Source: a virus (taxonomy: Duplodnaviria; Caudoviricetes). Taken from it: a DNA stretch of 64,000 nucleotides. The notes under the pieces were generated by a model. That model ran no database searches and was not told where the DNA came from. It saw only the letters and a program-made list of their open reading frames with translations. Below, piece by piece: positions 25,701 to 53,486 of the stretch. The stretch spans positions 32,001-96,000 of the IMG/VR virus record IMGVR_UViG_2926965794_000002; one strand, 5' to 3'. The translations under genes and the position numbers were made by a program. Every line of letters starts with the position of its first letter. Position 1 is the first letter of the stretch.

Positions 25701-25956
25701 CGCCGTTCTGGCGGGTTTTGCGTGCGATTGGCGCGGTTGAGGCGCGCCGAGCTATGGGCGCCGAGGGCTTGCCGGATGGCCGAGGCCGATAGCCTGGCCG
25801 ATTAGTGTCAATCCGTTGTGCTGGCGCCGCTGGCGCCGCGCCGCGCGCGGTAACCGTCCGCCTTCTCTCTCGCCTAGCGTGCCTAGTGGCGTGGTGCGGT
25901 TGACGTTGCGGCCTTGCGTCCATCCGCCGAGGCCGAGGCGCCGAGGCCAGAAACGC

Positions 25957-25986
25957 AAAACCCGCCGAGGTTTCCCGCGGCGGGTT
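25957..25986 (-). terminator. Intrinsic terminator (minus strand)
   Basis: AACCCGCCG-cgggaaacct-CGGCGGGTTTT. Confidence 0.55.
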
Positions 25987-26162
25987 GGCTGCAGCGACAC
26001 TGCGCCGAATGCCTGTTCTGAATCATAACTGGAGTCGGAGTGTCAAATCCGGTTCCGCTACTCGGCGGTGCATGACGGCGCCGCGCGGCCTCGGTCTCTC
26101 CCTGTTCTGTGATAGCTATTCGCTAGATGGACTGTTCAAACTCACGGGATAGGGAAAACGAC

Positions 26163-26474
26163 ATGCCTGCAGCGAAGGCGAATAGCTCGGCGCCGAGACA
26201 AGCCGGCAAAGGCCGCGCCTATGCCTCGGCCGGCGCCACACTGCGAATCAGCGCGGCCGAATTCATCGCTTGGCAGGAAGAGCTAGGCCTTTCGAATGGT
26301 GCTGCAGCTGCAGCGCTATTCGTTTCGCCCAATACGGTTACAGCGGTGCGCGCGGAAGGCGGTAGCGCTGAACTGGCGCTGAAGTGTCGCGCCATCGCCG
26401 CCGGCCTTTCGCCAGCGCTACCCATGCAAGAGGCCTTCCGCCTCGGCCGGATAAACGCCATTCTGCAGGAATAG
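26163..26474 (+). CDS. Small XRE-like HTH protein (first island gene)
   Basis: SAAEFIAWQEELGLSNGAAAAALFVSPNTV helix-turn-helix pattern; start trimmed to MPAAK. Confidence 0.7.
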   Translation: MPAAKANSSAPRQAGKGRAYASAGATLRISAAEFIAWQEELGLSNGAAAAALFVSPNTVTAVRAEGGSAELALKCRAIAAGLSPALPMQEAFRLGRINAILQE

Positions 26475-26547
26475 GCCGCAATTCCCTGTAGTGTGAGGTC
26501 GGCCGGCCGAAACCCTATCTTTTTTCACAGAGCAGCGAATTAGGGGA

Positions 26548-26576
26548 TTGACAGGCACCGCGCTTTCTAGGCATGT
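26548..26576 (+). promoter_or_regulatory. Candidate sigma70 promoter of the island
   Basis: Perfect TTGACA at 26548, 42 nt before repeat A1; -10 box weak. Confidence 0.4.
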
Positions 26577-26623
26577 GCGGCGAACGGAACGCGCGATTGT
26601 GCGCAAATCAAAAGGCCGCCGAC

Positions 26624-26860
26624 ATGGCAAAGACTATCGCCTATCAAGTCACAGTCCGCCGCATTGCTACCGGTTGTGACTTCCATATCCGTCTATTCTC
26701 ACAGTCCGCCGAGCATGCCAGCAACCGCGCCGTTGATCGCGCGCGCTTCGCTGAACGTATCTCACTGGCCAAATATCAGGAACTGAATGCCAAAGGCATT
26801 GCGTGCTTTCGCGTCATTTCTTGCGAAGTGTCCGCCGATCAATCGCGGCCGATTGGTTAG
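26624..26860 (+). CDS. Small hypothetical island protein
   Basis: ATG 34 nt after repeat A1, with RBS. Confidence 0.75.
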   Translation: MAKTIAYQVTVRRIATGCDFHIRLFSQSAEHASNRAVDRARFAERISLAKYQELNAKGIACFRVISCEVSADQSRPIG

Positions 26861-26868
26861 GCCGCGCC

Positions 26869-27036
26869 ATGCTCGCCGCTTTCATTTCCTTTTGCATCGC
26901 CAACCCGCCCTTTGCAGGTTTTATGCTTGCAGCGATCTATACCCTTTGCTGGGCCATCCTAGCTCCCTTTCTGTATGCGCCGGCAACGCCTCGGCGCCGT
27001 TCGATCCGGCGCCGCGCGCGCCGCAACCGCCGCTAG
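26869..27036 (+). CDS. Small membrane protein with Arg-rich tail
   Basis: MLAAFISF.. hydrophobic segment then RRRSIRRRARRNRR. Confidence 0.5.
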   Translation: MLAAFISFCIANPPFAGFMLAAIYTLCWAILAPFLYAPATPRRRSIRRRARRNRR

Positions 27037-27047
27037 GAGCAAAGCCA

Positions 27048-27284
27048 ATGCCGATTATCGTTTGCCATGATGGGGCGATCTACCGCGCCGAGATTTGGGG
27101 ATTCCGCGGCACTTGCGCGCTAATCCATAAGGCTAGCGGCCGATATGCGGTTATCCGCGGCGCCGAGGCCGCGCGTTACCATGACGCAATCGCGGTTGCG
27201 TATCTGCGATTTGGTAGCATGCCGGGTGATACGCTCTATGCCTGGCTTTGGACCAATGCCGGCTTTCATCGTTTGGCCAGCTAG
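27048..27284 (+). CDS. Small hypothetical island protein
   Basis: AGGAG RBS, MPIIVCHDG start. Confidence 0.6.
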   Translation: MPIIVCHDGAIYRAEIWGFRGTCALIHKASGRYAVIRGAEAARYHDAIAVAYLRFGSMPGDTLYAWLWTNAGFHRLAS

Positions 27285-27339
27285 GCCGCCTTCTAAGACT
27301 GCAACCGCGCGACTGTGCGCAAATCGAGAGGCTAGACCA

Positions 27340-27420
27340 ATGAGAGAGAATTCCGATTTTATCCTGTTCTGCGCGGCGGCTTTCGTCGGAACGTTTGTCA
27401 TTTTCGCTTGCTGTATGTGA
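27340..27420 (+). CDS. 26 aa hydrophobic micro-protein
   Basis: ATG 34 nt after repeat A2; MRENSDFILFCAAAFVGTFVIFACCM. Confidence 0.55.
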   Translation: MRENSDFILFCAAAFVGTFVIFACCM

Positions 27421-27430
27421 GGCGCGCGCC

Positions 27431-27670
27431 ATGGCAAAGCCTGATGATTTGACTTCCTACGCCTCGGCCGGATATGCCGCGCCGGCCTCGGCCAATCCGC
27501 ACTTGTGGAGTAGCGCAACACACATTGCGTTTCGCCTCGGCCAATGGTTGCACGAAACCGGCCGGCCGGCCCCGCGGAACGTCCGCATGTCGCGCGGCCT
27601 TTCGATCCGCGCAAACGATATGCTGATACGCTGGAACGCCAAAACCGGCGCATGCGAACGGATCAACTAA
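27431..27670 (+). CDS. Small hypothetical island protein
   Basis: GAGG RBS; MAKPDD..NPHLWSS..AFRLG. Confidence 0.65.
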   Translation: MAKPDDLTSYASAGYAAPASANPHLWSSATHIAFRLGQWLHETGRPAPRNVRMSRGLSIRANDMLIRWNAKTGACERIN

Positions 27671-27764
27671 CGCGATTTGCAGCCTATGCCGTGCAAGTCA
27701 CGGCATAACCGGCAAACCGCCGAAACCGCGCAATTGTGCGCAAACTTGAAAAGGACATAGGCAA

Positions 27765-27869
27765 ATGAAGTATCGCAAGCATGATTCCGACCGCCGGCCG
27801 AGCGACAAGCGGACTCGCCGCGCCGCGGTGCGCGATGGCAAGCGCGCGTTTCTGAATTCTTGCCTCTAA
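27765..27869 (+). CDS. 34 aa basic micro-protein
   Basis: ATG 38 nt after repeat A3; MKYRKHDSDRRPSDKRTRRAAVRDGKRAFLNSCL; below the ORF-track cutoff. Confidence 0.55.
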   Translation: MKYRKHDSDRRPSDKRTRRAAVRDGKRAFLNSCL

Positions 27870-27882
27870 GGGAGCTAGGGCA

Positions 27883-28179
27883 ATGCCTGCAGTCACACTA
27901 GACGGCGCCGTCTATTTCAATTGCTGTACGGATTACTCGGCGCCGGATTGGTCCGCCTTTCGTTCGCTGGAAATTGGAGGTTGCAGTGTCCGGCATGATC
28001 CGGACACGGGCGAAAGCAATGTGACCGGAAACCGCGCGCCGGACGATTCCGCCTTTTGGACTGTATACGCTCGCGAGCATGACGGTTGCGCGCTCGCGAT
28101 TACCGATTGCGGAATCCAAACGGAAACACACGCGATTGCCGAAACGCTATCCCGGCTTTCCGGCCTTCCCCTGATTTGA
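27883..28179 (+). CDS. Small acidic hypothetical protein
   Basis: GGGAG RBS; 98 aa. Confidence 0.7.
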   Translation: MPAVTLDGAVYFNCCTDYSAPDWSAFRSLEIGGCSVRHDPDTGESNVTGNRAPDDSAFWTVYAREHDGCALAITDCGIQTETHAIAETLSRLSGLPLI

Positions 28180-28267
28180 CGTTGCGACACTGCGCAGCAT
28201 GTCTGCGCAGCACGGAACGCCAAAGCGGACCAACGCGCGATTGTGCGCAATCGAAAGGCTTTCGACC

Positions 28268-28672
28268 ATGAACCGCAAACCGCAATTCGCTTGGCAATGT
28301 TCCTTTATGGGGACTGTCTACTATCGCGTTACGGATCAAACCGGCAACTATGAGGTTTCCATCCGTCATTCCGTTTCCGACTATGAGCTATCGATAGCAA
28401 ATGGCGATGACGTCCGGCGCGCCATGCGGACGGGAATCGGCATGCTTGTCCGATATGCCGAGGCATTGCCGGCGGATATCGTCGCGGCCTTCAATGCCTG
28501 GCGCGCCGCTGAACATGCTGCAGCCATGGCGAAACTTGACGCCGCGCCGGAACGCTATGGCGTCATCGCGCCGGATGACGAATTGCGCAAGCCGCCAATG
28601 ATCGCCCGCGCGGCCTCCTATGATCGCGCGCTGGGATGGATTCCGGTTTGCGAACTGGAGCGCGCAGCATGA
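28268..28672 (+). CDS. Hypothetical island protein
   Basis: ATG 34 nt after repeat A4. Confidence 0.75.
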   Translation: MNRKPQFAWQCSFMGTVYYRVTDQTGNYEVSIRHSVSDYELSIANGDDVRRAMRTGIGMLVRYAEALPADIVAAFNAWRAAEHAAAMAKLDAAPERYGVIAPDDELRKPPMIARAASYDRALGWIPVCELERAA

Positions 28673-28998
28673 ACCGCGATGCATTCCGCCGCACCATTTC
28701 CGCGCTACGCGCCGAGGCGAGAGGCCGGCGCCATCATGTCGCGACATTCTGGATTGTCTGCAACGGCGTCGAATTCACGGCGCGCGCAGAACGGGCAATC
28801 GGTCCGGTTGATTTGCGGACGTCGCGTCTATCTTGCCGGCCTCGCCGAGCTCTTGCGGCCGAGGCCTTGCGTTGGGCGGCTCATTATCGGCGCGCCGCGA
28901 AACACTCGCCTATCGCCCGCGCTCGCAATCTAGAGGCCGCGCGCGAATGCATCGCCGAGGCCGCGGCCTATCATTCCGTCTTTAACCGCCTTCCGTGA
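28669..28998 (+). CDS. Arg/Ala-rich hypothetical protein
   Basis: ATGA overlap with the upstream gene. Confidence 0.6.
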   Translation: MNRDAFRRTISALRAEARGRRHHVATFWIVCNGVEFTARAERAIGPVDLRTSRLSCRPRRALAAEALRWAAHYRRAAKHSPIARARNLEAARECIAEAAAYHSVFNRLP

Positions 28999-29011
28999 GG
29001 GATACCGCACC

Positions 29012-29350
29012 ATGAAAACAGCGCGCTTTTGGCACTATCACAAATCCGGCCTTGTTCGTATTGCGTTGCGGACTGGCCAAACATTGCACCATTCGCACGG
29101 CGCCAGAACAGACGAGGGATGGACGCGCGAGTCCAATATCTTTTCTTTCGACGGGCAAACCGTGACTAACGAATGGTGCGACGATGGCGCGGATTGCGAT
29201 GGACGCCTAACCTGCAATGGCGTTTGCAGCTGCGCGGCCGATAGGCTTTCCGCGGGTTACCATGACGTTGAAAACGGCGCGCGGTTTCCGGACTGGCAAG
29301 CCGCCGCAAGCATACAACGCGATTATTCCGCCGAGGCTGCAGGCTACTAG
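29012..29350 (+). CDS. Hypothetical protein (TDEGW..DCDG motifs)
   Basis: GAGGG RBS; 112 aa. Confidence 0.75.
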   Translation: MKTARFWHYHKSGLVRIALRTGQTLHHSHGARTDEGWTRESNIFSFDGQTVTNEWCDDGADCDGRLTCNGVCSCAADRLSAGYHDVENGARFPDWQAAASIQRDYSAEAAGY

Positions 29351-29407
29351 GCCGGCGCCGTCGAATTCAAACGCGCGATTGTGCGCAAATCGAAAGGACA
29401 GACAGAC

Positions 29408-29599
29408 ATGGCACGATATGGCGGCGATCCGCGATGGATCATTACCAAATATCCGGCCAATGACCGGAACGGGCATTTTATCCCGGTAGGAACGCGCGCG
29501 TTCTATTATCCGGTTTCCAAACGCATGTTGACCGGCGCCGAGGCTGAACAGGCAAGCCGCGATTTTGAGGCCGCACGTTTCGACGAAAGCATGAGGTAA
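29408..29599 (+). CDS. Small hypothetical island protein
   Basis: ATG 36 nt after repeat A5; DPRWI.TKY motif. Confidence 0.75.
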   Translation: MARYGGDPRWIITKYPANDRNGHFIPVGTRAFYYPVSKRMLTGAEAEQASRDFEAARFDESMR

Positions 29600-29605
29600 A
29601 GCGCA

Positions 29606-29905
29606 ATGGATTTTGCAGCATTCCAAGCCGCCGCGGCCGAGTTGGATAGCCGCATGAAAGAGGCCGGCGCGCGCCTCGGCGCCGTGACAGAAAGCCTTGC
29701 GGCCGAGATGGGGATTCCGGCGCGCGGTCCGATGGGATTGACGCCGGACCGCATTAAGTTTGATCCGCGATACCGGCTTGCGAAGGCCGCGGCCGATATC
29801 GCCTTTGCGGAACTACGGGCATTCAATGGCCGGTATGCGCCGCGCTTCAAGAAAGAGATACGCGCCGAGATTGACGCGCGGCGCCGTGCGAAGTGCACCG
29901 CTTAA
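29606..29905 (+). CDS. Small hypothetical protein (GPMGLTPD motif)
   Basis: GAGGT RBS; 99 aa. Confidence 0.75.
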   Translation: MDFAAFQAAAAELDSRMKEAGARLGAVTESLAAEMGIPARGPMGLTPDRIKFDPRYRLAKAAADIAFAELRAFNGRYAPRFKKEIRAEIDARRRAKCTA

Positions 29906-29967
29906 CCTGGCCTCGCCTTCCATCACTATTCCCGCGCGATTGTGCGCAACAGAAAGGACAATGGACC

Positions 29968-31068
29968 ATGCAACAGAGTGATATGATCGCGGCAAAGGCT
30001 GCCAAGGCAACGGAACGGCGCGCGCTGGCAATTATCGCCTATGACAACGCTAAACAGGATCCTGACGGCGCGAACTGGCAAGGGATTGCCGATTTGCTGC
30101 GCCTCTCCCTTCCCTCGGCGAAAGCCAAGGCCGCGCCGGCCGAGACTGGCGCCGACAACGGCGCGCCATGGTCGGATTATGATATCCCGGCAAGCGCGAC
30201 GAAACGTCTAGGCAAATCGCCTATCATCGTTGTGACGTTCTCTTGCGGTGCCGTGGTCTGCGCGCCGGCGGTTTCCCTTCCCGGCAAGCCGGTAAACATC
30301 GGCCGCGGCTTGCGTGTTGCCTTTGCCTTCTACCGCGCGCGGATCGCCCGGGAATTCGGCAAGGCCTCGGCCATTGGTTCGGATTGCGTGAACGTTCCGG
30401 CCATCGTTTCCGCCATCTGTGACGCTACCGGCGCCGAGTATGGCGCGGACGAATGCAACGCCAAAACCTCCGAATTCCGCCGCGGCGGTTTCGATCATGT
30501 CGCGCTTTCCGCCGAGGCCTCGGCCTTGCCGGAAAAGGCCGAGGCCGGCGAGTTGACGCGCGCCGACTTCTACCGCGGCCATTACCTCATTGCCTCGGCC
30601 GAGGCCGAGATTTTGGCCGGCGCCAATGAGGATCGCGCGGCCGAGTTGGGCGCGCAGATTAACGATTATCGCGCGCGCCTCGGCGGCTTGTCATGGCTGG
30701 AAATTGAAGCGCGGCGCCGCGCCGCAATCCGTGAGGCCAAAGCCGCGGCAAAGGCCGAGGCCGAGGCTATGGCCGAGGCCGGCCGGCGCGCCGAGCGCGA
30801 GGCCGAGGCGCACGCAGCTGCAGCCAAGGCCGAGGCCGAGGCGCCGCGGTTGCGGCTTGTCGGGGACAATTCCGCCAGCGTCGAAACCGCGGCGGCGCCA
30901 TCCCTCCCAGATACGGCCGATTCCCTCCCGGTTGCGCCCGCGCCAAAATCGGCCGCGCCTCTCCCGGTTGCGCCTTCCCGCGTCGCGCGCTTCCTGGCCT
31001 CGTCATCGCTCGGCGCGCCTCGTCATTCCCTCCCGGTTGCGCCTTTCTGCGCGATCCGCTCGGCCTAG
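29968..31068 (+). CDS. Ala-rich hypothetical protein with LPVAP repeats
   Basis: ATG 35 nt after repeat A6; 366 aa. Confidence 0.75.
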   Translation: MQQSDMIAAKAAKATERRALAIIAYDNAKQDPDGANWQGIADLLRLSLPSAKAKAAPAETGADNGAPWSDYDIPASATKRLGKSPIIVVTFSCGAVVCAPAVSLPGKPVNIGRGLRVAFAFYRARIAREFGKASAIGSDCVNVPAIVSAICDATGAEYGADECNAKTSEFRRGGFDHVALSAEASALPEKAEAGELTRADFYRGHYLIASAEAEILAGANEDRAAELGAQINDYRARLGGLSWLEIEARRRAAIREAKAAAKAEAEAMAEAGRRAEREAEAHAAAAKAEAEAPRLRLVGDNSASVETAAAPSLPDTADSLPVAPAPKSAAPLPVAPSRVARFLASSSLGAPRHSLPVAPFCAIRSA

Positions 31069-31083
31069 TCGGAGTCGCCAGCA

Positions 31084-31281
31084 ATGCACGCCTATGGTTT
31101 CGATATCCAACCGGACGGGGCAAGGTTTCGCCTAGTTGACCGCGCCGAGTTCAACCATTGGGGCGAGTTATCGCCGCGGTTCGATACCGCGGCCAAGGCC
31201 GAGGAATACGCGCGCCGTTGCGACGAATTAAAGCGCGGCAAGCGCTCAACCGTCGAATTGCGCGCTTGGGAACTGACCTAG
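31084..31281 (+). CDS. Small hypothetical island protein
   Basis: GGAG RBS; 65 aa. Confidence 0.6.
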   Translation: MHAYGFDIQPDGARFRLVDRAEFNHWGELSPRFDTAAKAEEYARRCDELKRGKRSTVELRAWELT

Positions 31282-31349
31282 GCCGCGGCGCGCCTCGGCC
31301 TCTCGAATTGACACGCGCGATTGTGCGCAAACGGAAAGGAATACAGACA

Positions 31350-31763
31350 ATGCGGAAACCGACTCCCAACAAAGAAAAGGCCGCGCAGCTGGCGCGCCAA
31401 ATCGCCAACATGACAGACGAGCAAAAGGCGCTTTGGCTGCAGCGCGCGCCGATCCTCACCGCGGACGCGCGGCCGATATCCGGCAAAAATCACATGCTGG
31501 CGGCGATGCAGTGCGAAGGCGCAACCATGCTCGGCGGCTTCAATCAATGGCTTGCCGCCGGCCGCGCGGTGCGGAAAGGCGAGTCCGCAATCTATATCTT
31601 TGCGCCGTCCGGCCGGCGCGCACCGGCCGAGGCCTCAGCGCCGCCGAGCGCGGAAGGCGCCGCGTCCGAGGCCGTGGCGGAGTCGGTGCGGTTTATCCTG
31701 GTGCCGGTTTTCGACGTTTCGCAAACCGAGGAAAAGCCGGCCGAACAAGCCGCCGCGGCATAG
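31350..31763 (+). CDS. ArdC N-terminal (DUF1738) ssDNA-binding domain protein
   Basis: SGKNHML..GFNQWLAAGRAVRKGE.AIYIFAP..F.LVPVFDVSQTE signature; ATG 36 nt after repeat A7. Confidence 0.85.
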   Translation: MRKPTPNKEKAAQLARQIANMTDEQKALWLQRAPILTADARPISGKNHMLAAMQCEGATMLGGFNQWLAAGRAVRKGESAIYIFAPSGRRAPAEASAPPSAEGAASEAVAESVRFILVPVFDVSQTEEKPAEQAAAA

Positions 31764-31820
31764 TCCCGGCTACGATCGATTTTGCACCCCCGAGCTACGG
31801 CCGATTTTGCGCAACACCGC

Positions 31821-31850
31821 TTGACAGATTCGGCCGACACAAATTAGAGA
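31821..31850 (+). promoter_or_regulatory. Candidate sigma70 promoter
   Basis: TTGACA-N18-TAGAGA, 38 nt before repeat A8. Confidence 0.45.
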
Positions 31851-31894
31851 AGCACCCCCGCGCGATTGTGCGCAAATCGAAAGGACAGAAACAC

Positions 31895-34255
31895 ATGCAG
31901 CATTCCGCCACCTATTCGCCCGATGATAACAAGCTGCGCCTTTATCCGGCGCACCGCCTGGACGCCGAGGAGTACGCGCGCGTGAAGGCCGCCGGCTTCA
32001 AGTGGGCGCCGCGCCAAGAACTGTTCGTCAAACCGTCCTGGAGCCCAAGCGCCGAAGATTTGCTGATTGAGATGTGTGGCGAGATCGGCGACGAGGACAA
32101 GAGCCTGGTAGAGCGCGCCGAGGATCGCGCCGACCGCTTCGACGAGTACAGCGACAAGCGGCTTTCAGAAGCCAACCGCGCGCGCGAGGCCGTGGACCAG
32201 ATCGCGGAACGGTTCGCGATGGGGCAGCCGATCTTGGTCGGCCATCATTCGGAGAAGAGCGCCCGCAGGGACAAAGAGCGCATGGATTCCGGCATGCGCA
32301 AGGCTCTCAAACTCTGGGACACCTCGAAATATTGGACGGCGCGCGCGGCCGGCGCCATCGCTCACGCGAAATACAAGGAACTGCCGGCGGTGCGTCATCG
32401 CCGCATCAAGGGCATTGAGTCCGATAAGCGGAAGCTGGAACGCCAGCAAGCAGAAACCGAAAGGCAGCTGAAGGCCTGGCAGATCGTCGCCGGCATCACC
32501 GACCTGGAGAAGCAGCGCGCGGCCGGTCTGACCGTGGCCAACAGCAGCGGTTATTGGTCGATGTCGTTTCCGCTGGCTGACTATCCGCGCGATCCGCCCG
32601 CCTCGCAGTATGAGGGACCGATGGGCCTTTGGTCCGCAATTGACGGGAACGTCATCACCGCCGCGCAGGCCGCCGCTATCGCGATTCCGAGCCTGCAGCG
32701 TTCCGGGCCTTGGCGAGACCGTTGGGTTGCGCACTATGACAACCGGCTGGCCTATGAACGCGCGATGTTGGCCGAGCAGATCGGCACCGAGGCGACCGCC
32801 AACCCGCTGGCCGACCGCTTCGCCTTCGCCGTCGGCGGCGAGGTGCAGACACGTCGCAGCGATGAATGGGTTACGGTGTTGAAGGTCAACCGCGGCGCTA
32901 ACGGTTCAGTTTCCAGCATGACGACGACCACGCCGGCCGGATCGCGCGGCAAGCAAGCGCATTGGAAGGTGGAGAGCATCCGCGATTATCGCGCGCCGAG
33001 CGCCGAGAACGTCGCCGCAGCGAAGGCCGCAACCAAGCTGCCGCCGCTCTGCAACTATCCCGGCGAGGGATTCCGCGAGATGACGGAGACCGAATGGAAG
33101 GGCCGCCGGCAGTTCTCGGATTTCTCCTATATCGGCAAGGTGAAGGAGACCGAGACCCACGGCGCGCATCGCGTGCGGCAAATGCCGACGCCCGGCGAAT
33201 TCTGGAAGAAACAGCAAGTTTTCATTACGGATGCAAAGCGCGTCGATCCGCCCAAGATCGCGCCGGCAGCCGAGCCGCAGGCGCCCGCGGAATTCGTCGC
33301 CGAGTATGTAGCGCCGCCCGCTGTTGATATTGACGCCATGCTGGCAACGGTCGGCGAGATCACCGGCGCACCGGTCGAGACCGTCACCCAGGACGAGCCC
33401 GAGGCCGTGCCGGCGCTGGTCCCGGTTGCGCCCGCGGAGGAGCCGCGACGCCTCGGCGACGCTAAGGCGGAGGCCCAGCGCATCGGCGCTGAGATCATCA
33501 CCGGACTCGGCCAGTTCCGTGTTGGCCTCGGCCAGCACGTCACCGACTGGTGCGACGATGAGGCGACGGCCTGGCGGCAGTTCTGCGAACTGGCTGGCGT
33601 GCCGTTCGAAGCCGAGGCGGTGCCGGCGGACCTGCGGCCGCGCGTTCTCGCCCCGGTCCCGGATACGGCCGATTCGCCGGAGCCGACCGCGGCGGACAGC
33701 TTCGAGGCAATGCGGGCCATGCTGAAAGGCGGCGGCGTTCAAGTCGTCGTTGCGCCTCAACTCTTCCCGACCTCGAACGAACTTGCCGCGGACGTCGCCG
33801 AGGCCGCCGACATCCGGCCCGGGCAGCGCATCTTGGAGCCGAGCGCAGGAACCGGCGCGCTTATCGAGGCCGCGCGCAACTGTGCCGATGGTCTCCAGGT
33901 GGTGGCGGTCGAGATCAACACCAAACTGTGCCAGGCGCTGGCCAACCGCTTCACCGGGTTGACCGTCATCAATGCGGACTTTCTCGACATGGCCGGCGCA
34001 ACGGACAAGTTTGACCGGATCATCATGAATCCGCCATTCGAGCGCGGCGCCGACATCAAGCACATTGAGAACGCGCGGCGCTTCCTGAAACCTGACGGCC
34101 GACTGGTCGCCATCTGCGCCGACGGACCGCGCCAGCGCGCGAAGCTCGAACCGATCGCGGTGGAGTATCGCGCCCTGCCCCCGGGATCCTTCAAGGCCGC
34201 CGGAACGATGGTCAACACGGCGCTCGTCGTGATCGATGGGCCGCCGCCGAGATAG
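31895..34255 (+). CDS. DUF3560-domain protein fused to a C-terminal amino-DNA methyltransferase
   Basis: ATYSPDDNKLRLY, GFKWAP, GQPILVGHHSEK; C-terminal ILEPSAGTG and IMNPPF; ATG 36 nt after repeat A8. Confidence 0.9.
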   Translation: MQHSATYSPDDNKLRLYPAHRLDAEEYARVKAAGFKWAPRQELFVKPSWSPSAEDLLIEMCGEIGDEDKSLVERAEDRADRFDEYSDKRLSEANRAREAVDQIAERFAMGQPILVGHHSEKSARRDKERMDSGMRKALKLWDTSKYWTARAAGAIAHAKYKELPAVRHRRIKGIESDKRKLERQQAETERQLKAWQIVAGITDLEKQRAAGLTVANSSGYWSMSFPLADYPRDPPASQYEGPMGLWSAIDGNVITAAQAAAIAIPSLQRSGPWRDRWVAHYDNRLAYERAMLAEQIGTEATANPLADRFAFAVGGEVQTRRSDEWVTVLKVNRGANGSVSSMTTTTPAGSRGKQAHWKVESIRDYRAPSAENVAAAKAATKLPPLCNYPGEGFREMTETEWKGRRQFSDFSYIGKVKETETHGAHRVRQMPTPGEFWKKQQVFITDAKRVDPPKIAPAAEPQAPAEFVAEYVAPPAVDIDAMLATVGEITGAPVETVTQDEPEAVPALVPVAPAEEPRRLGDAKAEAQRIGAEIITGLGQFRVGLGQHVTDWCDDEATAWRQFCELAGVPFEAEAVPADLRPRVLAPVPDTADSPEPTAADSFEAMRAMLKGGGVQVVVAPQLFPTSNELAADVAEAADIRPGQRILEPSAGTGALIEAARNCADGLQVVAVEINTKLCQALANRFTGLTVINADFLDMAGATDKFDRIIMNPPFERGADIKHIENARRFLKPDGRLVAICADGPRQRAKLEPIAVEYRALPPGSFKAAGTMVNTALVVIDGPPPR

Positions 34256-34331
34256 CCCCCGGCTGCGCCTACCTCCCGGCTACGATCGATTTTGAACCGC
34301 GCAACTGTGCGCAATTTTGAAAGGACACCGA

Positions 34332-34838
34332 ATGCCCATGACCTTCGAGCAGTTTCAGGCCACCCGCACCGAATGCGCCGACATCGGCGCAGCCATCAGC
34401 ACCGATATGGGGATAACCGAGCCAGTGCCCGGCTTTCTGTACCTCGGGACGTTCTATATCGAGGGCATGACGTCAACCTGGCCCGACGAGGCGCGCGCGC
34501 AGGGGACGTATCACCTCCTGATCGAGCGCGACGAATGGATTAGCGACGACCTCGAAGCGTTGGAGCGCCACCTTTTTGAGTTTGCGCTCGCCTCTGGTGC
34601 CGAAATGGGAATTGACGACCTCTGCGCCGAGTACAAGACCTGGAACAAGGCGCAAGGCCTCAACCTCAGCAGCGCTGATGAGCATCTGGCCGACGAGACG
34701 CTTTCCGAGGAGCAGCGCGGTTGGCTGCGCGACTTCTCCAGCCGTTGGGAAGAGGCTGAGCAGCGCGCGCGGCGTCACAAGTGCCAGCACCGCGACAGCG
34801 GGCGCGGCGTCTGCATCGACTGCGGCGCAGCCCTTTGA
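34332..34838 (+). CDS. Acidic hypothetical protein with C-terminal Cys/His cluster
   Basis: ATG 34 nt after repeat A9; ends CQHRDSGRGVCIDCG. Confidence 0.75.
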   Translation: MPMTFEQFQATRTECADIGAAISTDMGITEPVPGFLYLGTFYIEGMTSTWPDEARAQGTYHLLIERDEWISDDLEALERHLFEFALASGAEMGIDDLCAEYKTWNKAQGLNLSSADEHLADETLSEEQRGWLRDFSSRWEEAEQRARRHKCQHRDSGRGVCIDCGAAL

Positions 34839-34873
34839 CCCCTCGGCTACGACCGATTTGACGGAGGCTCCTC

Positions 34874-35041
34874 ATGCTCACAATTGAGATAATCGCGACC
34901 GCGACGGGCAAATGCATCAAGCGCTGTGCGTTCGAGGCCGCGACGGTTTCGGATCGCGCCGCGGTGTTCCTGTCATTCCTCAATTACTGGGAACGGCATT
35001 TCGGACAGCAGACCGATTACACCTGGCGCACACCCGCATAG
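34874..35041 (+). CDS. 55 aa hypothetical protein
   Basis: GGAGG RBS right after a B repeat; MLTIEIIATATGK..; below the ORF-track cutoff. Confidence 0.55.
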   Translation: MLTIEIIATATGKCIKRCAFEAATVSDRAAVFLSFLNYWERHFGQQTDYTWRTPA

Positions 35042-35056
35042 GAAGGAGGTTGACTC

Positions 35057-35374
35057 ATGACGACCAAGAAGCCCGATATCTACTCCGGCCCCATCGAAGG
35101 CGCGCGCGCCGCCATCATCGAAGCGCTCGGCGGTGCATTCGCAACCCCGCCAGCCTCGCCGCCCGAACGCCAGCTGACCGACGACGAGAAGGCCTTTATC
35201 GCCCGCATGGCGCCGCACGTCATGGCCGGCAAGACGATGGAGGAAGCCGCGGCGGCCGTCGTCCAGGACGATGAGCGGCTTTGGCTGACCGCTACGGAGG
35301 ACTCCGACGTTGGCCGCGCGATCCGCGACGAGCTCGCCGCCACGGTCTACGCCGCGGCGCGATCTGCGACATAG
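35057..35374 (+). CDS. Hypothetical protein
   Basis: AGGAGGT RBS; 105 aa. Confidence 0.7.
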   Translation: MTTKKPDIYSGPIEGARAAIIEALGGAFATPPASPPERQLTDDEKAFIARMAPHVMAGKTMEEAAAAVVQDDERLWLTATEDSDVGRAIRDELAATVYAAARSAT

Positions 35375-35449
35375 AGACGGCTGCACCTCCCGCTTACGAC
35401 CGATTTCCCAATACCCCCTCGGCTACGGCCGATTTGAGAGGAGTCCGAA

Positions 35450-36073
35450 ATGCCTCGACGCAAATCCAAACTGCCGGCACCGAAACCGCCGATCGAGATC
35501 GGCGACTATTTCGCCCATCGCGGTCTCGACAATGTCACTGTCCGTCTAAAAACAGGCCCTCTTGACAACAACTTCTTTTCGCTCCGCGACGAGCACATCA
35601 CGCAGTGCTCGACTTTCGAAGGTGCCGAGCGCCTGGCAGCGCTGATGAATCAGGCTCGCGACCTCGCCCGTGACTATCGCATGGTCTCCAATATCGGCGG
35701 TCAATTCGGCGGCCGCGATCAGATCGCAGGCTACATCGCGCGTCACGTCGCCAATGCCCTCGACGTGCCACACCGATACGTCTCACCGGACGAGCACACC
35801 CGCGAGACGCTCAATGAATACGGCCGTCAGGTCGGCGATCTCGCGCGGTTCTTCGCCTTCCTGGATGCGACCGGTACGCCGGCCACGCTCGATGACTTCA
35901 AGGCCCGGGCCATGCTGCGCCGGCATGCTATCAACGACCGCGACTGCACGTACTGCGACCACGACCGTTCCCGCGAGGTTGTCCGTGCTTGGCGCCGCAC
36001 CTTCGATCCGTCGACCGCCGCGGCAGATCGCGCCGCGCAGGTTCTCCGGGAGATAGAGGCCGCAACATCATGA
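35450..36073 (+). CDS. Hypothetical protein
   Basis: GAGGAG RBS after a B-repeat pair; 207 aa. Confidence 0.7.
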   Translation: MPRRKSKLPAPKPPIEIGDYFAHRGLDNVTVRLKTGPLDNNFFSLRDEHITQCSTFEGAERLAALMNQARDLARDYRMVSNIGGQFGGRDQIAGYIARHVANALDVPHRYVSPDEHTRETLNEYGRQVGDLARFFAFLDATGTPATLDDFKARAMLRRHAINDRDCTYCDHDRSREVVRAWRRTFDPSTAAADRAAQVLREIEAATS

Positions 36074-36345
36074 CCAACGAACAAATGGTTTCAGCCGCCG
36101 GCATCAAGGTCGTGACCCGTGCCGAGTTCGACGCCGCGACCGACGTTCCCGCCGGCGTGCGCCTGGTGGCCAATCGGCTGTTCAAACGCTGGGGCGGCGA
36201 CTTCGTGGTGTACGACCCGGCCGGCGGCGATGACGGCTGGCTGCTCATCGACGATGATCGAGAACAGATCATCGGCGAGACGATCGAACACCTCGGACGG
36301 CTCAACCCTGAGCCGTCGGCGCCGGCGCAAGGCTCGCTTTTCTGA
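36070..36345 (+). CDS. Small acidic hypothetical protein
   Basis: ATGA overlap; MTNEQMV start. Confidence 0.65.
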   Translation: MTNEQMVSAAGIKVVTRAEFDAATDVPAGVRLVANRLFKRWGGDFVVYDPAGGDDGWLLIDDDREQIIGETIEHLGRLNPEPSAPAQGSLF

Positions 36346-36563
36346 TGACACTGAGGCCCTGGAAAGAGTTGACCCGCGACCAGCGGGCCGAGCGCCTCGG
36401 CGACGCGCGGCGATGGAAGAAGCCCGCCGAGCCTGGAGACAAGCGGGCAGCCGAACTGCTGCGGCGGCTCGAGTCCGGAGAACCCTTGACCCGGGCCGAC
36501 CTAAAGGAGGCCCGCGCGCTGCTGCGCGCCAAACGAGGAAGGAATCAAGATGAGACAGGTTAG
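36345..36563 (+). CDS. Small hypothetical protein
   Basis: TGATG coupling; 72 aa. Confidence 0.55.
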   Translation: MTLRPWKELTRDQRAERLGDARRWKKPAEPGDKRAAELLRRLESGEPLTRADLKEARALLRAKRGRNQDETG

Positions 36564-36915
36564 ACGCGTGCCCGCCGATTGGCAGCACCCCCGCAACTCC
36601 GGAGGCCGGTATGTCCCGCTGCTGGAGACTGCCCCGGATGCGCCCGCGCCCGATCCTACCCGCCACATGCCGGCTTGGCCAGCGGCGCAGCGCACGCACT
36701 GGCAGCTGTACGAGACCACCAGCGCCGGCACGCCGGTTTCGCCACCCTGCCCGTCACCCGAGGCGTTGGCCAAATGGCTGGCCGGCCACCATGTGGAGGC
36801 CGCACCAGGCTTCACGGGAACGGAGGCGCAATGGCTCGGCGCGATCAAGCGCGGCACCATCCCGCCGGTGATGACCGTCGGCAAGCGCCAGGTCAATCCG
36901 CTCGACTACACCTGA
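36550..36915 (+). CDS. Hypothetical phage protein (RRVPADWQHP..WQLYETTS.GTPVSP)
   Basis: AAGGA RBS; 121 aa. Confidence 0.75.
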   Translation: MRQVRRVPADWQHPRNSGGRYVPLLETAPDAPAPDPTRHMPAWPAAQRTHWQLYETTSAGTPVSPPCPSPEALAKWLAGHHVEAAPGFTGTEAQWLGAIKRGTIPPVMTVGKRQVNPLDYT

Positions 36916-37008
36916 TCGGCCGGGACTCCCGGCTACGATCGATTTTGTGCTACCCCCTCGGCTACGGCCGATTCCGGGCGACTGTGCCCAACCGGAAAGG
37001 ATCTCGAG

Positions 37009-37332
37009 ATGTCACCACCCCGATTTGCTCACCGCAAGATCACGAGCGAAGATTTCAAGGCCGAGCTGGCCAAGCAAGGCATGTCGGTGCCGGCGTTCGC
37101 GCGCGTCTGGTGCCAGAACCTGTCTACGGTGAAGAAGTGGGCGAATGGCGGGAACGATATCCCGACCTGGGTGCCGATCGCGCTCACCATGATGACGCTG
37201 CCGAATGCCCATGGCACCGCTCGCATGGCGGCGGCGGCGATGATCGAAGAGGATCGGCTGCATCCCGAGCTCGGGAAATTCCCCTATCAGAAGCTTCGGC
37301 AGATGCCGGCGGACGACGAGATCGAGGAATAG
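37009..37332 (+). CDS. Small XRE-like HTH protein (last island gene)
   Basis: SEDFKAELAKQGMSVPAFARVW..STVKKWANG..IP.WV; ATG 34 nt after repeat A10. Confidence 0.8.
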   Translation: MSPPRFAHRKITSEDFKAELAKQGMSVPAFARVWCQNLSTVKKWANGGNDIPTWVPIALTMMTLPNAHGTARMAAAAMIEEDRLHPELGKFPYQKLRQMPADDEIEE

Positions 37333-37340
37333 CCCCCGGG

Positions 37341-37556
37341 CTACGATCGATTTTGCGCGGCCCGGCTGCGCTTCTTCTTCGTCGTGCGCCGATTCTTCGG
37401 CTGCGATCGCTTCGCTGCCGGCGTCGTCGGCGCGTCCTTTGCTGCGGCCGCGGCATCACGGGCATCAAGCTCGCGCTTCAACGCCTGATTACGCTCCCAG
37501 TTGGCTTCGCGGAAAGCGCGGAGTCCGTCAGCGCGCGTAGTTGGCTCTTTTGACAT
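37341..37556 (-). CDS. Small basic hypothetical protein
   Basis: GGAGG RBS; stop codon overlaps the last B repeat. Confidence 0.55.
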   Translation of the reverse strand: MSKEPTTRADGLRAFREANWERNQALKRELDARDAAAAAKDAPTTPAAKRSQPKNRRTTKKKRSRAAQNRS

Positions 37557-38111: not shown

Positions 38112-39023
38112 CTACTTCCGCAAGCCCATGCCGGCAGCGGTCTTCAACCGCCGTACCGCGTCCCATGTCCGGTCGATGATCTCGACACCGTCGTAAAGCC
38201 TCACCAGCGCGTTCAGCGCGATCCGGAAGTCGGAGTTGTTGGTGCGATGCTCCTCGCCGCCATGCATCCGGACGTCCTCGCTGCTGCACTCGAGACCGAT
38301 CCTGACGAGGAGGATGTCGAACTGCCGCTGGCCGAGCCGGCGCTCGACATCCCGGAGACGTCCGCTGGCCTCGAGGGCGATGGTGTGCGAGGGCGAGCCG
38401 CCGCCGCCGCCATCGACCTTGTCCTGCAGCGCGAAGCCTCGCGATCCGTGGAACGTGGCCAAGTCGAAATCGCGTCGGAAGCGATCTGCGGCGCTCTGGC
38501 GCAGCTTGTCCTCTGGATCCGCGGCGCCGCGTTTCTTGGATTCCGTGAGATTGAGGTGCGACGCTCGGACCGTGTCGACCAGTACGTTGAGCCTTGGATT
38601 TTGTGGGTCCGGGATGGTGTGCTTGCGCCGGCCGCTGGCCAGGCGCTCGGCTTCGTCTGCCGCCTTCTGCTCTTTTTTGGTGAGCGGCTTGCCCCAGAGA
38701 TTCAGCGGGTCGGTGGAGTCGATCGTCCCGCTTCGGAAGCCCTGCTGGAACAGCTTGTTCCGGTGCAAGGCCTCCTTCACGCGGCGCGCACCCTCGGTGT
38801 CGCGGTCCATCAGGTACTCGACCACGAACTCCTGGATGACGCGCTGCCGGCGGCGCGTCTCCTCAAACAGGAGCTGACCTTCATAGGTCAGCCCCTTGTA
38901 CGACTCCATTGGTCGAGCGCGCCGGATGTCGCGCATGAAAGCACGGGCTCGGCGATCGCGCTCCTTGTCGACGTGTACCGGTGCGATATCCGTGATCTGT
39001 GCTTGAGACATTCTATCCTCCAC
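38112..39023 (-). CDS. Putative late-gene regulator (DUF6456-like)
   Basis: AADRFRRDF..KVDGG..RLG..FRIALNALVRLY pattern; occupies the Q-like position. Confidence 0.55.
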   Translation of the reverse strand: MEDRMSQAQITDIAPVHVDKERDRRARAFMRDIRRARPMESYKGLTYEGQLLFEETRRRQRVIQEFVVEYLMDRDTEGARRVKEALHRNKLFQQGFRSGTIDSTDPLNLWGKPLTKKEQKAADEAERLASGRRKHTIPDPQNPRLNVLVDTVRASHLNLTESKKRGAADPEDKLRQSAADRFRRDFDLATFHGSRGFALQDKVDGGGGGSPSHTIALEASGRLRDVERRLGQRQFDILLVRIGLECSSEDVRMHGGEEHRTNNSDFRIALNALVRLYDGVEIIDRTWDAVRRLKTAAGMGLRK

Positions 39024-39726
39024 GCAGAATCACGAATAAGTTTTGCGGAGGTGATTTGTCTACGATTGCAAGCGGAAAGTTGACGGCTCATCCACCGTCG
39101 ATCTGTCTTTGACCCGGGAGGTACTCATACATCGCCGGTGATTTCGCTTCGCCGGACATCGACGCCTCTGGTCAATCGTAGCTAAGTTGCGATAGTCGAC
39201 GTGGCGACCTAACCGAGGACTTCCGGTTACCCTCGAACGGCCGACCTTTCCGGTGGTCATACAGACCGTCAGCCAACAGGAGACATCAGGAGGTTGCCCT
39301 CGCTAGGCCACCAACTGGACTATTAGAGACGGAGCGTAGGACCGCGGGCGCAGCCACCACTTACTAGTAGCGATCTTACGACGCACAGCCGCGCCAAGAA
39401 GCAACCTTTACAATAGCACCAACGCTGTGGCACCATCCAGACGTGCATGAACTTTTGACGTTGTCTGGCCGACGGAGACGGCATGGCGCGCGACGTTCTC
39501 ACATGCCAGCGCAGAGTTGAGCGCGACCATCATCGCACGGTTGCGGCGGGATTAGCTTTGCTTTTCGCCGGTTTGGTATTTGGCTTCATACCATTCGCGC
39601 ATGCCGACGATTTTGAACCTGTGAGCACTCTGCAATTCGTGGCCCGCCTGGTCTGGGTGGTACTGAAGTGCTGTAGCTATTGGTTATTGCAGATTGAAGA
39701 GAGGGCGTTTTTTGGAGGAGGCGTTC

Positions 39727-40806: not shown

Positions 40807-40846
40807 GCGTGGCGTCCTCGCGAAGATCCTACTTTTGGAGGACATT

Positions 40847-41152: not shown

Positions 41153-41308
41153 TCAGCGCATTGGTCCGGTCTTGAGCCCGATCGAATATTTGCCATTCAC
41201 GCATCGGATAGGCTTGGGCGTAGAGCATGAGCACGCCAAATAAACTGGCTCCCTCTCCCGTGTTCGCCTGGCTTGACCGAGGCGGGCTCCCTTGGTCGGC
41301 TATGGGTC

Positions 41309-53399: not shown

Positions 53400-53404
53400 G
53401 GCCT

Positions 53405-53470: not shown

Positions 53471-53486
53471 TTCCTACACTGGACCC

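What the first reader, a model, noticed from the sequence alone, without database searches (positions are those of the whole stretch)
26163..37332. HTH genes bracket the island; the last one carries its own variant hairpin
Seen: small XRE-like HTH genes are the first (26163) and last (37009) island genes, and the last is preceded by a B-repeat pair plus the covarying A10 copy. Known: Aca proteins are small HTH repressors at the end of anti-CRISPR operons that autoregulate, Aca2 through both DNA and RNA. Inference: the 37009 protein, which would enter and be expressed last, is a timer that silences the island and could mark new anti-defence loci.
Basis: inference. Interest (0 to 1): 0.7.

Follow-up and report, generated by a model that had tools for sequence, protein, structure and literature searches.

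The report
Two HTH regulators frame phage island
In a Bradyrhizobium prophage, two small conserved DNA-binding-type proteins sit at the start and end of an 11-kb block of swappable accessory genes whose starts carry a conserved RNA stem-loop, and the last protein may be an anti-CRISPR-associated-like shut-off regulator, but this is unproven.

Summary
The window is part of a 110-kb Bradyrhizobium provirus. Gene 37009-37332 encodes a 107-aa protein with a confident XRE-type helix-turn-helix fold. It has no Pfam family. Its closest structures are Aca2, Aca10, Aca1 and HigA2. Gene 26163-26474 is a weaker XRE/HigA-like match.

Both genes are conserved anchors of a mosaic + strand island that contains an ArdC-N-like gene and a DUF3560-methyltransferase gene. 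Homologues of the first gene precede the island promoter in eight relatives. The 107-aa gene is the last gene, at a convergent junction, in nine distinct related loci.

Repeat A is a real stem-loop ending 18-22 nt before the start codon:
- 10 copies against 0.02 expected by chance.
- About 105 copies in relatives, 98.7% paired, with compensatory changes at 4 of 5 pairs.

The GGGC/GCCC variant before 37009 is conserved in the near clade. Repeat B is a polar sequence motif, not a covarying hairpin. A and B coincide with recombination breakpoints.

The geometry matches the RNA motifs bound by Aca1 and Aca2, so the "Aca-like timer" reading is plausible (about 0.35-0.4). Nothing shows binding, there is no sequence membership in an Aca family, and cis-only explanations remain open.

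The scan's first readers had already noted repeats A and B on this same stretch.

The parts
26163..26474 (+). First bracket gene (103 aa), a probable XRE/HigA-like HTH transcribed on its own
   Evidence: Profile against PDB hits XRE regulator 6f8s at E=0.002. TIGR02607 scores E=0.02. Homologues lie directly upstream of the island promoter in L009, L013-15, L017, L019, L034 and L036.
26524..26539 (.). Imperfect inverted repeat TTCACAGAGCAGCGAA just upstream of the -35 of P1; candidate site for the first HTH
   Evidence: The sequence differs in three clades in step with the recognition helix of the first gene. This is a lead only.
26548..26577 (+). Promoter-like P1 (TTGACA, 18 nt, CATGTG), 14 nt upstream of the first A stem-loop
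   Evidence: Sequence. The -35 box and the arrangement are conserved in relatives. The consensus scan did not call it.
26591..26604 (+). A1 stem-loop GCGCG-ATTG-TGCGC, 20 nt (18 nt from the trailing AA) before ATG 26624
27307..27320 (+). A2 stem-loop before a 26-aa ORF
27728..27741 (+). A3 stem-loop before the 34-aa Arg-rich peptide gene
27765..27869 (+). Conserved 34-aa Arg/Lys-rich peptide gene; alternative candidate for the hairpin binder
   Evidence: Alignment A8 with L009, L017 and L036, 53-76% identity
28235..28248 (+). A4 stem-loop
29373..29386 (+). A5 stem-loop
29934..29947 (+). A6 stem-loop
31315..31328 (+). A7 stem-loop before the ArdC-N-like gene
31350..31763 (+). ArdC N-domain-like gene (137 aa)
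   Evidence: Pfam PF08401 E=7e-6. PHROG 7245 anti-restriction E=6e-6.
31821..31850 (+). Promoter-like P2 (TTGACA, 17-18 nt, TTAGAG/TAGAGA), preceded by a B pair and followed by A8
   Evidence: Sequence; conserved in L009, L015, L023 and L029
31860..31873 (+). A8 stem-loop before the DUF3560-methyltransferase gene
31895..34255 (+). DUF3560 + SAM-methyltransferase gene (786 aa), conserved in relatives
   Evidence: Pfam DUF3560 E=1e-33, plus methyltransferase domains
34299..34312 (+). A9 stem-loop
36925..36976 (+). B pair (TACG cores at 36934 and 36963) directly upstream of A10; nearly invariant in relatives whose proteins are 66-96% identical
36976..36989 (+). A10 stem-loop, GGGC/GCCC variant, 20 nt (18 nt from the trailing AA) before ATG 37009
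37009..37332 (+). Last bracket gene (107 aa), XRE-fold HTH of an unnamed family
37333..37371 (+). Final B copy plus a terminator-like hairpin and T-rich tail at the convergent junction

Best explanation
Proposed model.

The 26.1-37.4 kb block is a mosaic accessory early region of a temperate Bradyrhizobium siphovirus, probably with an anti-restriction role. It lies between the late operon (small terminase onward, - strand) and the end of the leftward replication operon. Host-type TTGACA promoters (P1, P2) drive it.

About half of its genes carry repeat A, a 5-bp stem with an A-N-N-G loop. This is transcribed into the leader or the intercistronic RNA and ends 18-22 nt before the start codon, with the ribosome-binding site in between.

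The first HTH (26163) is a separately transcribed regulator that acts at P1. The last HTH (37009) is the promoter-distal product. Like Aca1 and Aca2, it feeds back negatively on the operon by binding the A element, as an RNA stem-loop blocking translation and/or as a 14-bp DNA palindrome just downstream of the transcription start. Its own A10 variant gives it a different set-point.

Shown here:
- The HTH folds.
- The conserved bracket architecture.
- The covariation-supported stem-loop and its fixed spacing.
- The conserved variant.
- The promoter-like boxes.

Inferred: every binding step, the sign of regulation, the anti-defence role and the entry order.

The conservative part (two conserved XRE-type regulators framing a variable, hairpin-marked island) I hold at about 0.85. 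The Aca-like feedback mechanism I hold at about 0.35-0.4.
For: - XRE fold of the 37009 protein: pLDDT 85; nearest structures Aca2 Z 9.3 (rmsd 1.6 over 54 aa), Aca10 8.5, Aca1 8.0, HigA2 7.7; profile hit to HigA2 E=2.7e-4; ESM Atlas neighbours include HTH_3/Xre clusters.
- The family is large and unnamed: 393 representative clusters.
- The 107-aa gene is the last + strand gene at a convergent junction in the window, L009, L012-15, L017, L018, L034 and L036.
- Homologues of the first gene sit immediately before the island promoter and the first A copy in 8 relatives.
- A element: 10 copies versus 0.02 expected. The covariance model finds about 105 hits with E<0.01 in 14 sources, all in sense orientation and all inside islands. 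98.7% of cells are paired, 4 of 5 pairs carry double changes, and the G.U/A-U alternation at the fifth pair is compatible with pairing only on the sense strand.
- The orthologous hairpin before the last gene is 95% paired, with two compensatory pairs.
- The GGGC/GCCC variant is conserved in relatives whose proteins are 66-96% identical.
- The literature reports that Aca1/Aca2 RNA motifs lie right after the transcription start, end about 20 nt before the start codon, and also occur between genes (PMC13551039).
- Other regulatory roles are already taken. A CI-like HTH+S24 repressor lies at 53127-54272 and a GcrA-like regulator at 51530-52207.
- The upstream neighbour of the 107-aa gene is not conserved, so it is not a toxin-antitoxin pair.
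Against: - No sequence hit to any Aca structure or to DUF1870. The fold match covers only the generic 55-residue HTH core, and Z 9.3 is only modestly above the generic rows.
- No A-like palindrome overlaps the -35 or -10 boxes of P1 or P2.
- One phage (L017) carries GGCC, TGCC, GCGC and GCC stems together, which a stem-sequence reader would not bind equally.
- The HTH recognition region does not track stem type: G001 has a different recognition region but GCGC stems.
- In L018 and L019 the last gene has the ordinary stem, and in the remote L038 the homologue is not last and has no hairpin.
- A and B coincide with mosaic breakpoints, so they could persist as portable expression signals and recombination joints without any dedicated binder.
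- Fold energies of the intergenic regions are no better than shuffled sequence.
- The island contains no validated anti-defence gene.
Confidence: 0.38

Rival explanations
1. A and B are cis-only elements. A would be a 5'-terminal or intercistronic stabiliser hairpin and part of a strong portable translation start. B would be a sequence block at stop/start junctions. Both would be kept because they travel with exchangeable gene cassettes and provide homology for recombination. The 107-aa HTH would then be an ordinary DNA-binding transcription factor with another target, such as the convergent leftward operon, host genes or superinfection control.
For: - Homology breakpoints between the window and L009, L012, L013 and L014 fall within about 20 nt of A or B copies.
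- Promoter-proximal A copies start within a few nt of the predicted transcription start.
- Several stem variants coexist in one phage.
- B has 183 distinct polar copies with an invariant core but an uncompensated 5' arm.
- The HTH recognition region does not track stem type.
Against: - Invariant non-stem features (loop A, R.U closing pair, trailing AA) and the fixed 18-22 nt spacing suggest recognition by a factor.
- The B-B-A10 region before the HTH gene is more conserved than the protein itself.
- Every viral contig with more than one exact A copy also encodes the HTH family, although all of these are kin.
Confidence: 0.3
2. The A stem-loops are bound by a different phage factor, for example the conserved 34-aa arginine-rich peptide (27765-27869), in the manner of lambda N binding boxB. 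The two HTH proteins would act only on DNA at promoters.
For: - The peptide is conserved in the window, L009, L017 and L036 at 53-76% identity. It has 9 Arg and 4 Lys in 34 residues and is itself preceded by an A copy.
- Arginine-rich peptides binding small RNA hairpins is established knowledge (lambda N/boxB).
Against: - There is no homology to N or to any family, and tiny ORFs are easily over-called.
- No clear homologue in L018.
- A is not followed by terminators that would need antitermination.
Confidence: 0.1
3. The 107-aa protein is a HigA2-type antitoxin or immunity factor paired with a neighbouring toxin.
For: The best sequence-profile hits are HigA2 and HigA antitoxins, and the Foldseek top hit is HigA2.
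Against: The upstream neighbour is conserved only in the near clade and differs in L018, L019, L034, L036 and L038. The downstream genes are convergent. No toxin family was detected.
Confidence: 0.05
4. One of the two HTH proteins is the phage's lysis-lysogeny switch (Cro or CI) or its late-gene activator.
For: Both are small phage HTH proteins. The first gene is divergent from the late operon's upstream region.
Against: - A CI-like HTH+Peptidase_S24 gene lies at 53127-54272, divergent from the leftward early operon.
- A GcrA-like regulator and an MT-A70 methylase are encoded in the same operon.
- Two conserved GANTC sites flank a - strand TTGACA in the late upstream region.
Confidence: 0.07

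Closest known systems
Aca1/Aca2 anti-CRISPR-associated HTH regulators with 5'-UTR RNA motifs (Birkholz et al. 2024, from my own knowledge; Feussner et al. 2026, PMC13551039)
   Same: - A small HTH protein encoded promoter-distal in an operon of small accessory genes.
- A hairpin motif directly after the transcription start, ending about 20 nt before the start codon, and also between genes.
- Fold nearest to the Aca2, Aca10 and Aca1 HTH domains.
   Different: - No sequence relationship to any Aca family.
- Ten motif copies in an 11-kb island of roughly 25 genes, against at most three reported clustered sites.
- No cognate DNA palindrome on the promoter boxes.
- No known Acr in the operon.
- A second HTH at the island's start.
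- Binding is untested.
Start-associated sequences (SAS/ESAS) of Cluster K mycobacteriophages (PMC3203893)
   Same: - Short repeats in one orientation, just upstream of the start codons of non-structural genes.
- Conserved across related phages in front of unrelated genes.
- Function unknown, with translation suspected.
   Different: - SAS is a 13-bp asymmetric sequence that overlaps the ribosome-binding site. For ESAS the authors found that departures do not support RNA pairing.
- Here A lies upstream of the ribosome-binding site and shows clear compensatory changes.
HigA2/MqsA-type XRE antitoxin HTH domains
   Same: Best sequence-profile match (E=2.7e-4), sharing the W-x-x-G-x-x-x-P motif after the recognition helix.
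   Different: No conserved toxin partner. The family has its own conserved N-terminal R-F-x-H/Y arm and a C-terminal D-x3-P-x2-G-x2-P-Y tail.
Stoperators of Cluster A mycobacteriophages (from my own knowledge; mentioned in PMC3203893)
   Same: Many copies of a short site in intergenic gaps, all oriented with transcription, bound by one phage HTH repressor.
   Different: Stoperators are asymmetric 13-bp DNA sites spread over the whole genome. A is a structured palindrome confined to one island, at fixed spacing from start codons.

Membership tests
Aca (anti-CRISPR-associated) regulators | Small HTH (or RHH) nucleic-acid-binding fold | tested here: met
   AlphaFold2 pLDDT 85. VIA-align gives Aca2 Z 9.3, Aca10 8.5 and Aca1 8.0 over the HTH core.
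Aca (anti-CRISPR-associated) regulators | Sequence homology to a named Aca family (for example Aca2 = DUF1870) | tested here: not met
   No Pfam hit at E up to 10. Single-sequence and profile searches of PDB sequences, which include Aca1, Aca2 and Aca10 chains, do not list them at E up to 10.
Aca (anti-CRISPR-associated) regulators | Co-operonic with a validated anti-CRISPR or anti-defence gene | tested here: inconclusive
   Only an ArdC-N-like domain (E=7e-6) and a DUF3560-methyltransferase are present in the window, with DUF932 in relatives. Most island proteins have no family.
Aca (anti-CRISPR-associated) regulators | Binds an inverted repeat in its own operon's promoter and represses it | not testable with these tools
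   No A-like palindrome overlaps the -35 or -10 of P1 or P2. A lies just downstream of the predicted start. Binding needs gel-shift and reporter assays.
Aca (anti-CRISPR-associated) regulators | Structured RNA motif in the leader, just after the transcription start and about 20 nt before the start codon (Aca1/Aca2) | tested here: met
   A ends 18-22 nt before the ATG. Covariation supports the stem. P1 and P2 place A at the 5' end of the transcript. Only the geometry is met; binding is untested.
XRE/Cro-C1 HTH superfamily (37009 protein) | Five-helix bundle with helix-turn-helix, plus profile similarity | tested here: met
XRE/Cro-C1 HTH superfamily (26163 protein) | Profile similarity and fold | tested here: inconclusive
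   6f8s XRE regulator E=0.002. HigA TIGR02607 E=0.02. Pfam HTH families E=0.03-0.25. The model has pLDDT 49.
HigA-type antitoxin | Conserved adjacent toxin partner | tested here: not met
   Upstream neighbours are unrelated in L018, L019, L034, L036 and L038.
Start-associated sequences (Cluster K phages) | Asymmetric 13-bp repeat overlapping the ribosome-binding site, 3-7 bp from the start codon | tested here: not met
   A is a palindromic stem-loop upstream of the AAAGGA ribosome-binding site, 18-22 nt from the ATG. Only the start-association and the polarity are shared.

The most novel reading that the evidence does not exclude
The 107-aa protein founds a new Aca-like family. It reads about ten start-proximal RNA stem-loops (and their DNA form) and so shuts off a whole 11-kb, roughly 25-gene accessory island. 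The first HTH switches the island on at P1. Together the two HTH genes and the A motif would be a searchable signature for mining unknown anti-defence genes in phages of alphaproteobacteria.
Probability: 0.22. Interest if true: 0.8.

Novelty: new variant of a known kind. Interest (0 to 1): 0.55.

Why it matters
If the last HTH really controls the A stem-loops, this would be the largest regulon so far for an Aca-type regulator acting on RNA and DNA. It would also be the first such case in rhizobial phages.

It would give a simple three-part signature for finding new anti-restriction or anti-defence genes among the island's many orphan proteins: the first HTH, a hairpin-marked gene array, and the last HTH.

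Even without that, the data establish three things:
- A covariation-supported, start-associated RNA stem-loop family.
- An unannotated HTH family of about 400 clusters.
- Short conserved junction elements that mark where accessory genes are swapped between related prophages of a symbiotic nitrogen fixer.

Tried and rejected
- **Direct family searches on both proteins.** Pfam, PHROG, NCBIfam and PDB sequence searches gave nothing for 37009 and only marginal HTH hits for 26163.
- **Rfam on 25.4-37.7 kb.** No family at E up to 1.
- **Cultured phages.** tblastn of the 107-aa protein found no match.
- **B as a C(UACG)G hairpin or mini-terminator.** Rejected. Across 183 copies the 3' half is invariant while the 5' arm varies without compensation, and the closing C-G is C.A in a third of copies. 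Folds are no better than shuffles.
- **Co-variation of the last HTH's recognition region with stem type.** It looked promising (CQN with GCGC, GVN with GGCC, GVG/GTG with CGGC). G001 then contradicted it, with an SGA-type region and GCGC stems. I treat it as inconclusive.
- **The first gene's HTH against the A stems.** It does not track them: the HTH is nearly identical in the window and L017 although the stems differ.
- **Toxin-antitoxin reading.** Rejected, because the neighbour is not conserved.
- **Cro/CI reading.** Rejected, because a CI-like gene lies at 53 kb.
- **Integron-like cassette array.** No tyrosine recombinase in the record, and A is far shorter than attC.
- **Structure of the first protein.** The 8-sequence alignment gave only pLDDT 49, so I ran no fold search on it.

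Full report
**Context**

The window is bases 32001-96000 of a 109,940-bp IMG/VR provirus. Its relatives are prophages of Bradyrhizobium (B. elkanii group, B. embrapense, and strains C9, Ai1a-2 and Leo170) and soil metagenome contigs.

The gene layout around the island is as follows.
- Left of the island, the - strand carries the late genes: large terminase, portal, S49 protease, two HK97-type capsid proteins, tail tube, tape measure and a J-like tail protein.
- Right of the island, the - strand carries a leftward early operon that runs from about 52.8 kb down to 37.3 kb. It holds a GcrA-like regulator, an MT-A70 methylase, DnaN, a C5 methylase, a primase, DnaB and a DUF6456 protein.
- That operon is divergent from a CI-like HTH+Peptidase_S24 gene at 53127-54272.

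The + strand block at 26.1-37.4 kb is therefore a separate unit, wedged between the start of the late operon and the end of the early operon. Most of its products have no family. The exceptions are an ArdC N-domain-like protein (31350-31763; Pfam E=7e-6, PHROG "anti-restriction" E=6e-6) and a 786-aa DUF3560+methyltransferase (31895-34255). Relatives carry DUF932 in the same block.

**The observation**

Both ORFs are present as described.

The last gene's product (107 aa):
- It has no Pfam, PHROG or PDB sequence hit on its own.
- It has 62 close homologues, all annotated as hypothetical, and 393 representative clusters in the wider library.
- With a 30-sequence alignment, AlphaFold2 gives pLDDT 85 and helices at 13-22, 27-33, 38-45, 54-61 and 67-77.
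- Foldseek returns only XRE-type HTH proteins, with HigA2 on top (TM 0.75, E 0.07) and no match at E<=0.001. The viral library also returns only XRE-type proteins.
- Re-alignment with VIA-align ranks Aca2 first (Z 9.3, rmsd 1.6 over 54 residues), then SO3848 (9.0), Aca10 (8.5), Aca1 (8.0) and HigA2 (7.7). Rows within one Z unit are ties, and only the generic HTH core is aligned.
- A 57-sequence profile hits the HigA2 HTH domain at E=2.7e-4.

So the protein is an XRE-superfamily HTH of an unnamed family, not a sequence member of any Aca family.

The first gene's product (103 aa):
- It gives marginal but consistent hits: XRE regulator 6f8s E=0.002 with a profile, HigA TIGR02607 E=0.02, Pfam HTH families E=0.03-0.25 and a PHROG "DNA binding protein" E=0.0085.
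- Its model is poor, pLDDT 49, although five helices are predicted.

Repeat A:
- The pattern GSGCRAYTGTGCSCAA occurs 10 times against 0.02 expected by chance.
- All copies are on the + strand and lie only in the island.
- Each copy ends 18-22 nt before an ATG, with an AAAGGA-type ribosome-binding site in between.

Repeat B:
- The core TACGRYCGATTY occurs 11 times against 0.04 expected.
- Nine copies lie in intergenic gaps of the island's right half and two lie inside coding sequence.
- A B pair lies at 36925-36976 and A10 at 36976-36989.
- A further B copy (37333-37355) and a terminator-like hairpin (37355-37371) follow the gene.

**The bracket architecture is conserved**

The 107-aa gene is the last + strand gene, abutting convergent genes, in the window, L009, L012-15, L017, L018, L034 and L036. 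In L019, L035, L037 and the remote L038, other + strand genes follow it.

A homologue of the first gene lies immediately upstream of a TTGACA promoter and the first A copy in L009, L013, L014, L015, L017, L034 and L036, with a weaker case in L019.

The first gene carries no A or B copy. A conserved T-run follows it, and then comes P1 (TTGACA 26548-26553, 18 nt, CATGTG). It is therefore its own transcription unit.

A second promoter-like site, P2 (TTGACA 31821-31826, TTAGAG 31844-31849), precedes the methyltransferase gene and is conserved. The simple consensus scan called neither site, so both remain predictions.

Between the anchors the gene content differs from phage to phage. The breakpoints of nucleotide homology fall within about 20 nt of A or B copies. 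One high-scoring segment, 29372-31808, starts at A5 and ends at a B copy. Another, 31854-34348, starts at A8.

**Repeat A is a stem-loop**

The element is 5'-S1S2S3S4-R-A-N-N-G-U-S4'S3'S2'S1'-AA. A covariance model built from 24 copies finds about 105 hits with E<0.01 in 14 sources. All are in sense orientation and all lie inside the islands. In the 64-kb window it finds only the ten known copies.

On the resulting alignment:
- 98.7% of cells form pairs, against 87% in shuffles and 7-87% when the partner column is slid.
- Four of the five pairs show changes on both sides (35 cells).
- The covariation score is 0.317 against 0.115 (0 of 500 shuffles reach it).
- This alignment was fitted to the model, which biases it toward the structure.

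An independent, positionally defined alignment of the hairpin before the last gene in 13 distinct relatives gives 95% pairing and two compensatory pairs.

The stems seen are GCGC, GGGC/GCCC, GGCC, CGGC/GCCG, TGCC/GGCA, TCGC/GCGA and CGCC/GGCG. The fifth pair alternates between G.U (54 copies) and A-U (44 copies), which is compatible with pairing only on the sense strand. [quoted passage not shown] No Rfam family matches.

**The variant before 37009**

GGGC-R-A-Y-Y-G-U-GCCC is conserved before the 107-aa gene in every relative whose protein is 66-96% identical, while the other genes in those phages keep GCGC. So it is a fixed, gene-specific compensatory variant and not drift.

It is not universal, however. 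L017 has GCC/GGC, L030 and L032 have GGC/GCC, L035 has CGCC/GGCG, and L018 and L019 have the ordinary GCGC stem. The upstream B-B-A10 segment is nearly invariant even where the protein has diverged to 67% identity, which argues that it is a functional control region.

**Repeat B is not a hairpin**

Across 183 distinct copies the motif is CCCYCGGC-TACGRCYGATTTY. The 3' half is almost invariant. The 5' arm varies without compensation, and the would-be closing pair is C.A in about a third of copies.

B is strictly polar. It often abuts the ribosome-binding site. In one subtype it incorporates the TAG stop codon. Its function is unknown. L034 has A copies and the HTH gene but no B copy, so B is not required alongside the HTH.

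**Who binds A?**

- The first gene's HTH does not track A. Its HTH is nearly identical in the window and L017 although the stems are GCGC and GGCC respectively, and it differs in L009 where the stems are the same as in the window.
- The sequence just upstream of the P1 -35 box (TTCACAGAGCAGCGAA in the window and L017, TTCGCAATTTTGCG in L009 and L013, another sequence in L014 and L015) changes in step with that protein's recognition helix. This is a lead that the first HTH acts at P1.
- For the last HTH, an apparent match between recognition-region type and stem type is broken by G001, which has a different recognition region but GCGC stems. Co-evolution is therefore inconclusive.
- All viral contigs with more than one exact A copy also encode the HTH family, but they are all kin.
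- A conserved 34-aa arginine-rich peptide (27765-27869) is an alternative binder.

**Comparison with known systems**

Feussner et al. 2026 (PMC13551039) report three relevant points:
- Aca2 and Aca1 bind RNA hairpins in acr-aca leaders.
- The Aca1 motif lies directly after the transcription start and ends about 20 nt before the start codon.
- Such motifs also occur between genes, and Aca proteins may control neighbouring anti-defence operons.

The A element has exactly this geometry, and the last gene has an Aca-like position and fold. Three things are missing: sequence membership, a promoter operator and a validated anti-defence cargo.

The Cluster K start-associated sequences (PMC3203893) share the polarity and the association with start codons, but they are unstructured.

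**Verdict**

- The Aca-like "timer" reading is a reasonable and testable hypothesis (about 0.35-0.4), not a demonstrated function.
- A cis-only reading, in which A is a stabiliser and translation signal and A and B are cassette junctions, is nearly as likely (about 0.3).
- Entry order cannot be assessed from an integrated prophage.

First-reader notes from this scan had already flagged repeats A and B on the same stretch. My tests agree on A and disagree on the B hairpin.

Noticed in passing
window 25940-26046: Candidate late promoter on the - strand. A TTGACA box (reverse complement of 26041-26046) is flanked by two GANTC sites (GAATC 26020-26024, GAGTC 32-36 of 26030s) and followed leftwards by a terminator-like hairpin with a T-run (25986-25940) before the small terminase gene. 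The arrangement is conserved in all relatives. The phage encodes a GcrA-like regulator (51530-52207) and an MT-A70 methylase (49935-50555), which suggests methylation-dependent late control.
   Followed up: partly
window 33657-33712: An in-ORF B copy inside the DUF3560-methyltransferase gene is followed by GAGG and an in-frame ATG at 33710 (Met606), just before the methyltransferase domain (Pfam residues 622-743). Relatives have a B pair at the same place. A nested start may yield a methyltransferase-only isoform.
   Followed up: partly
window 27765-27869: A conserved 34-aa arginine/lysine-rich peptide gene (motif DKRTRR...GKRA[FY]LNSC[LI]) is preceded by an A stem-loop. It is present in L009, L017 and L036.
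   Followed up: partly
window 26.5-37.4 kb versus L009, L012, L013 and L014: Mosaic homology breakpoints coincide with A and B copies. The island behaves as a set of exchangeable cassettes between conserved anchors.
   Followed up: yes
window 39000-41700: A low-GC slot (0.50-0.53 against 0.64) lies between the DUF6456 gene and DnaB, with orphan ORFs such as 39694-40806. Relatives carry an HTH_3+Peptidase_M78 gene and a DUF4411 gene in the same slot. It is probably a variable defence or moron site.
   Followed up: no
window 26524-26539: The imperfect inverted repeat just upstream of the P1 -35 box differs between three clades in step with the recognition helix of the first HTH. It is a candidate operator or activator site.
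   Followed up: partly
whole record G000: No tyrosine recombinase (PF00589) was found in the 110-kb provirus record. The integration or maintenance mechanism was not identified.
   Followed up: partly
window 30908-30923: A second in-ORF B-like copy (TCCCAGATACGGCCGATTC) lies inside the 366-aa gene 29968-31068. It is 95% identical to the copy inside the methyltransferase gene.
   Followed up: no
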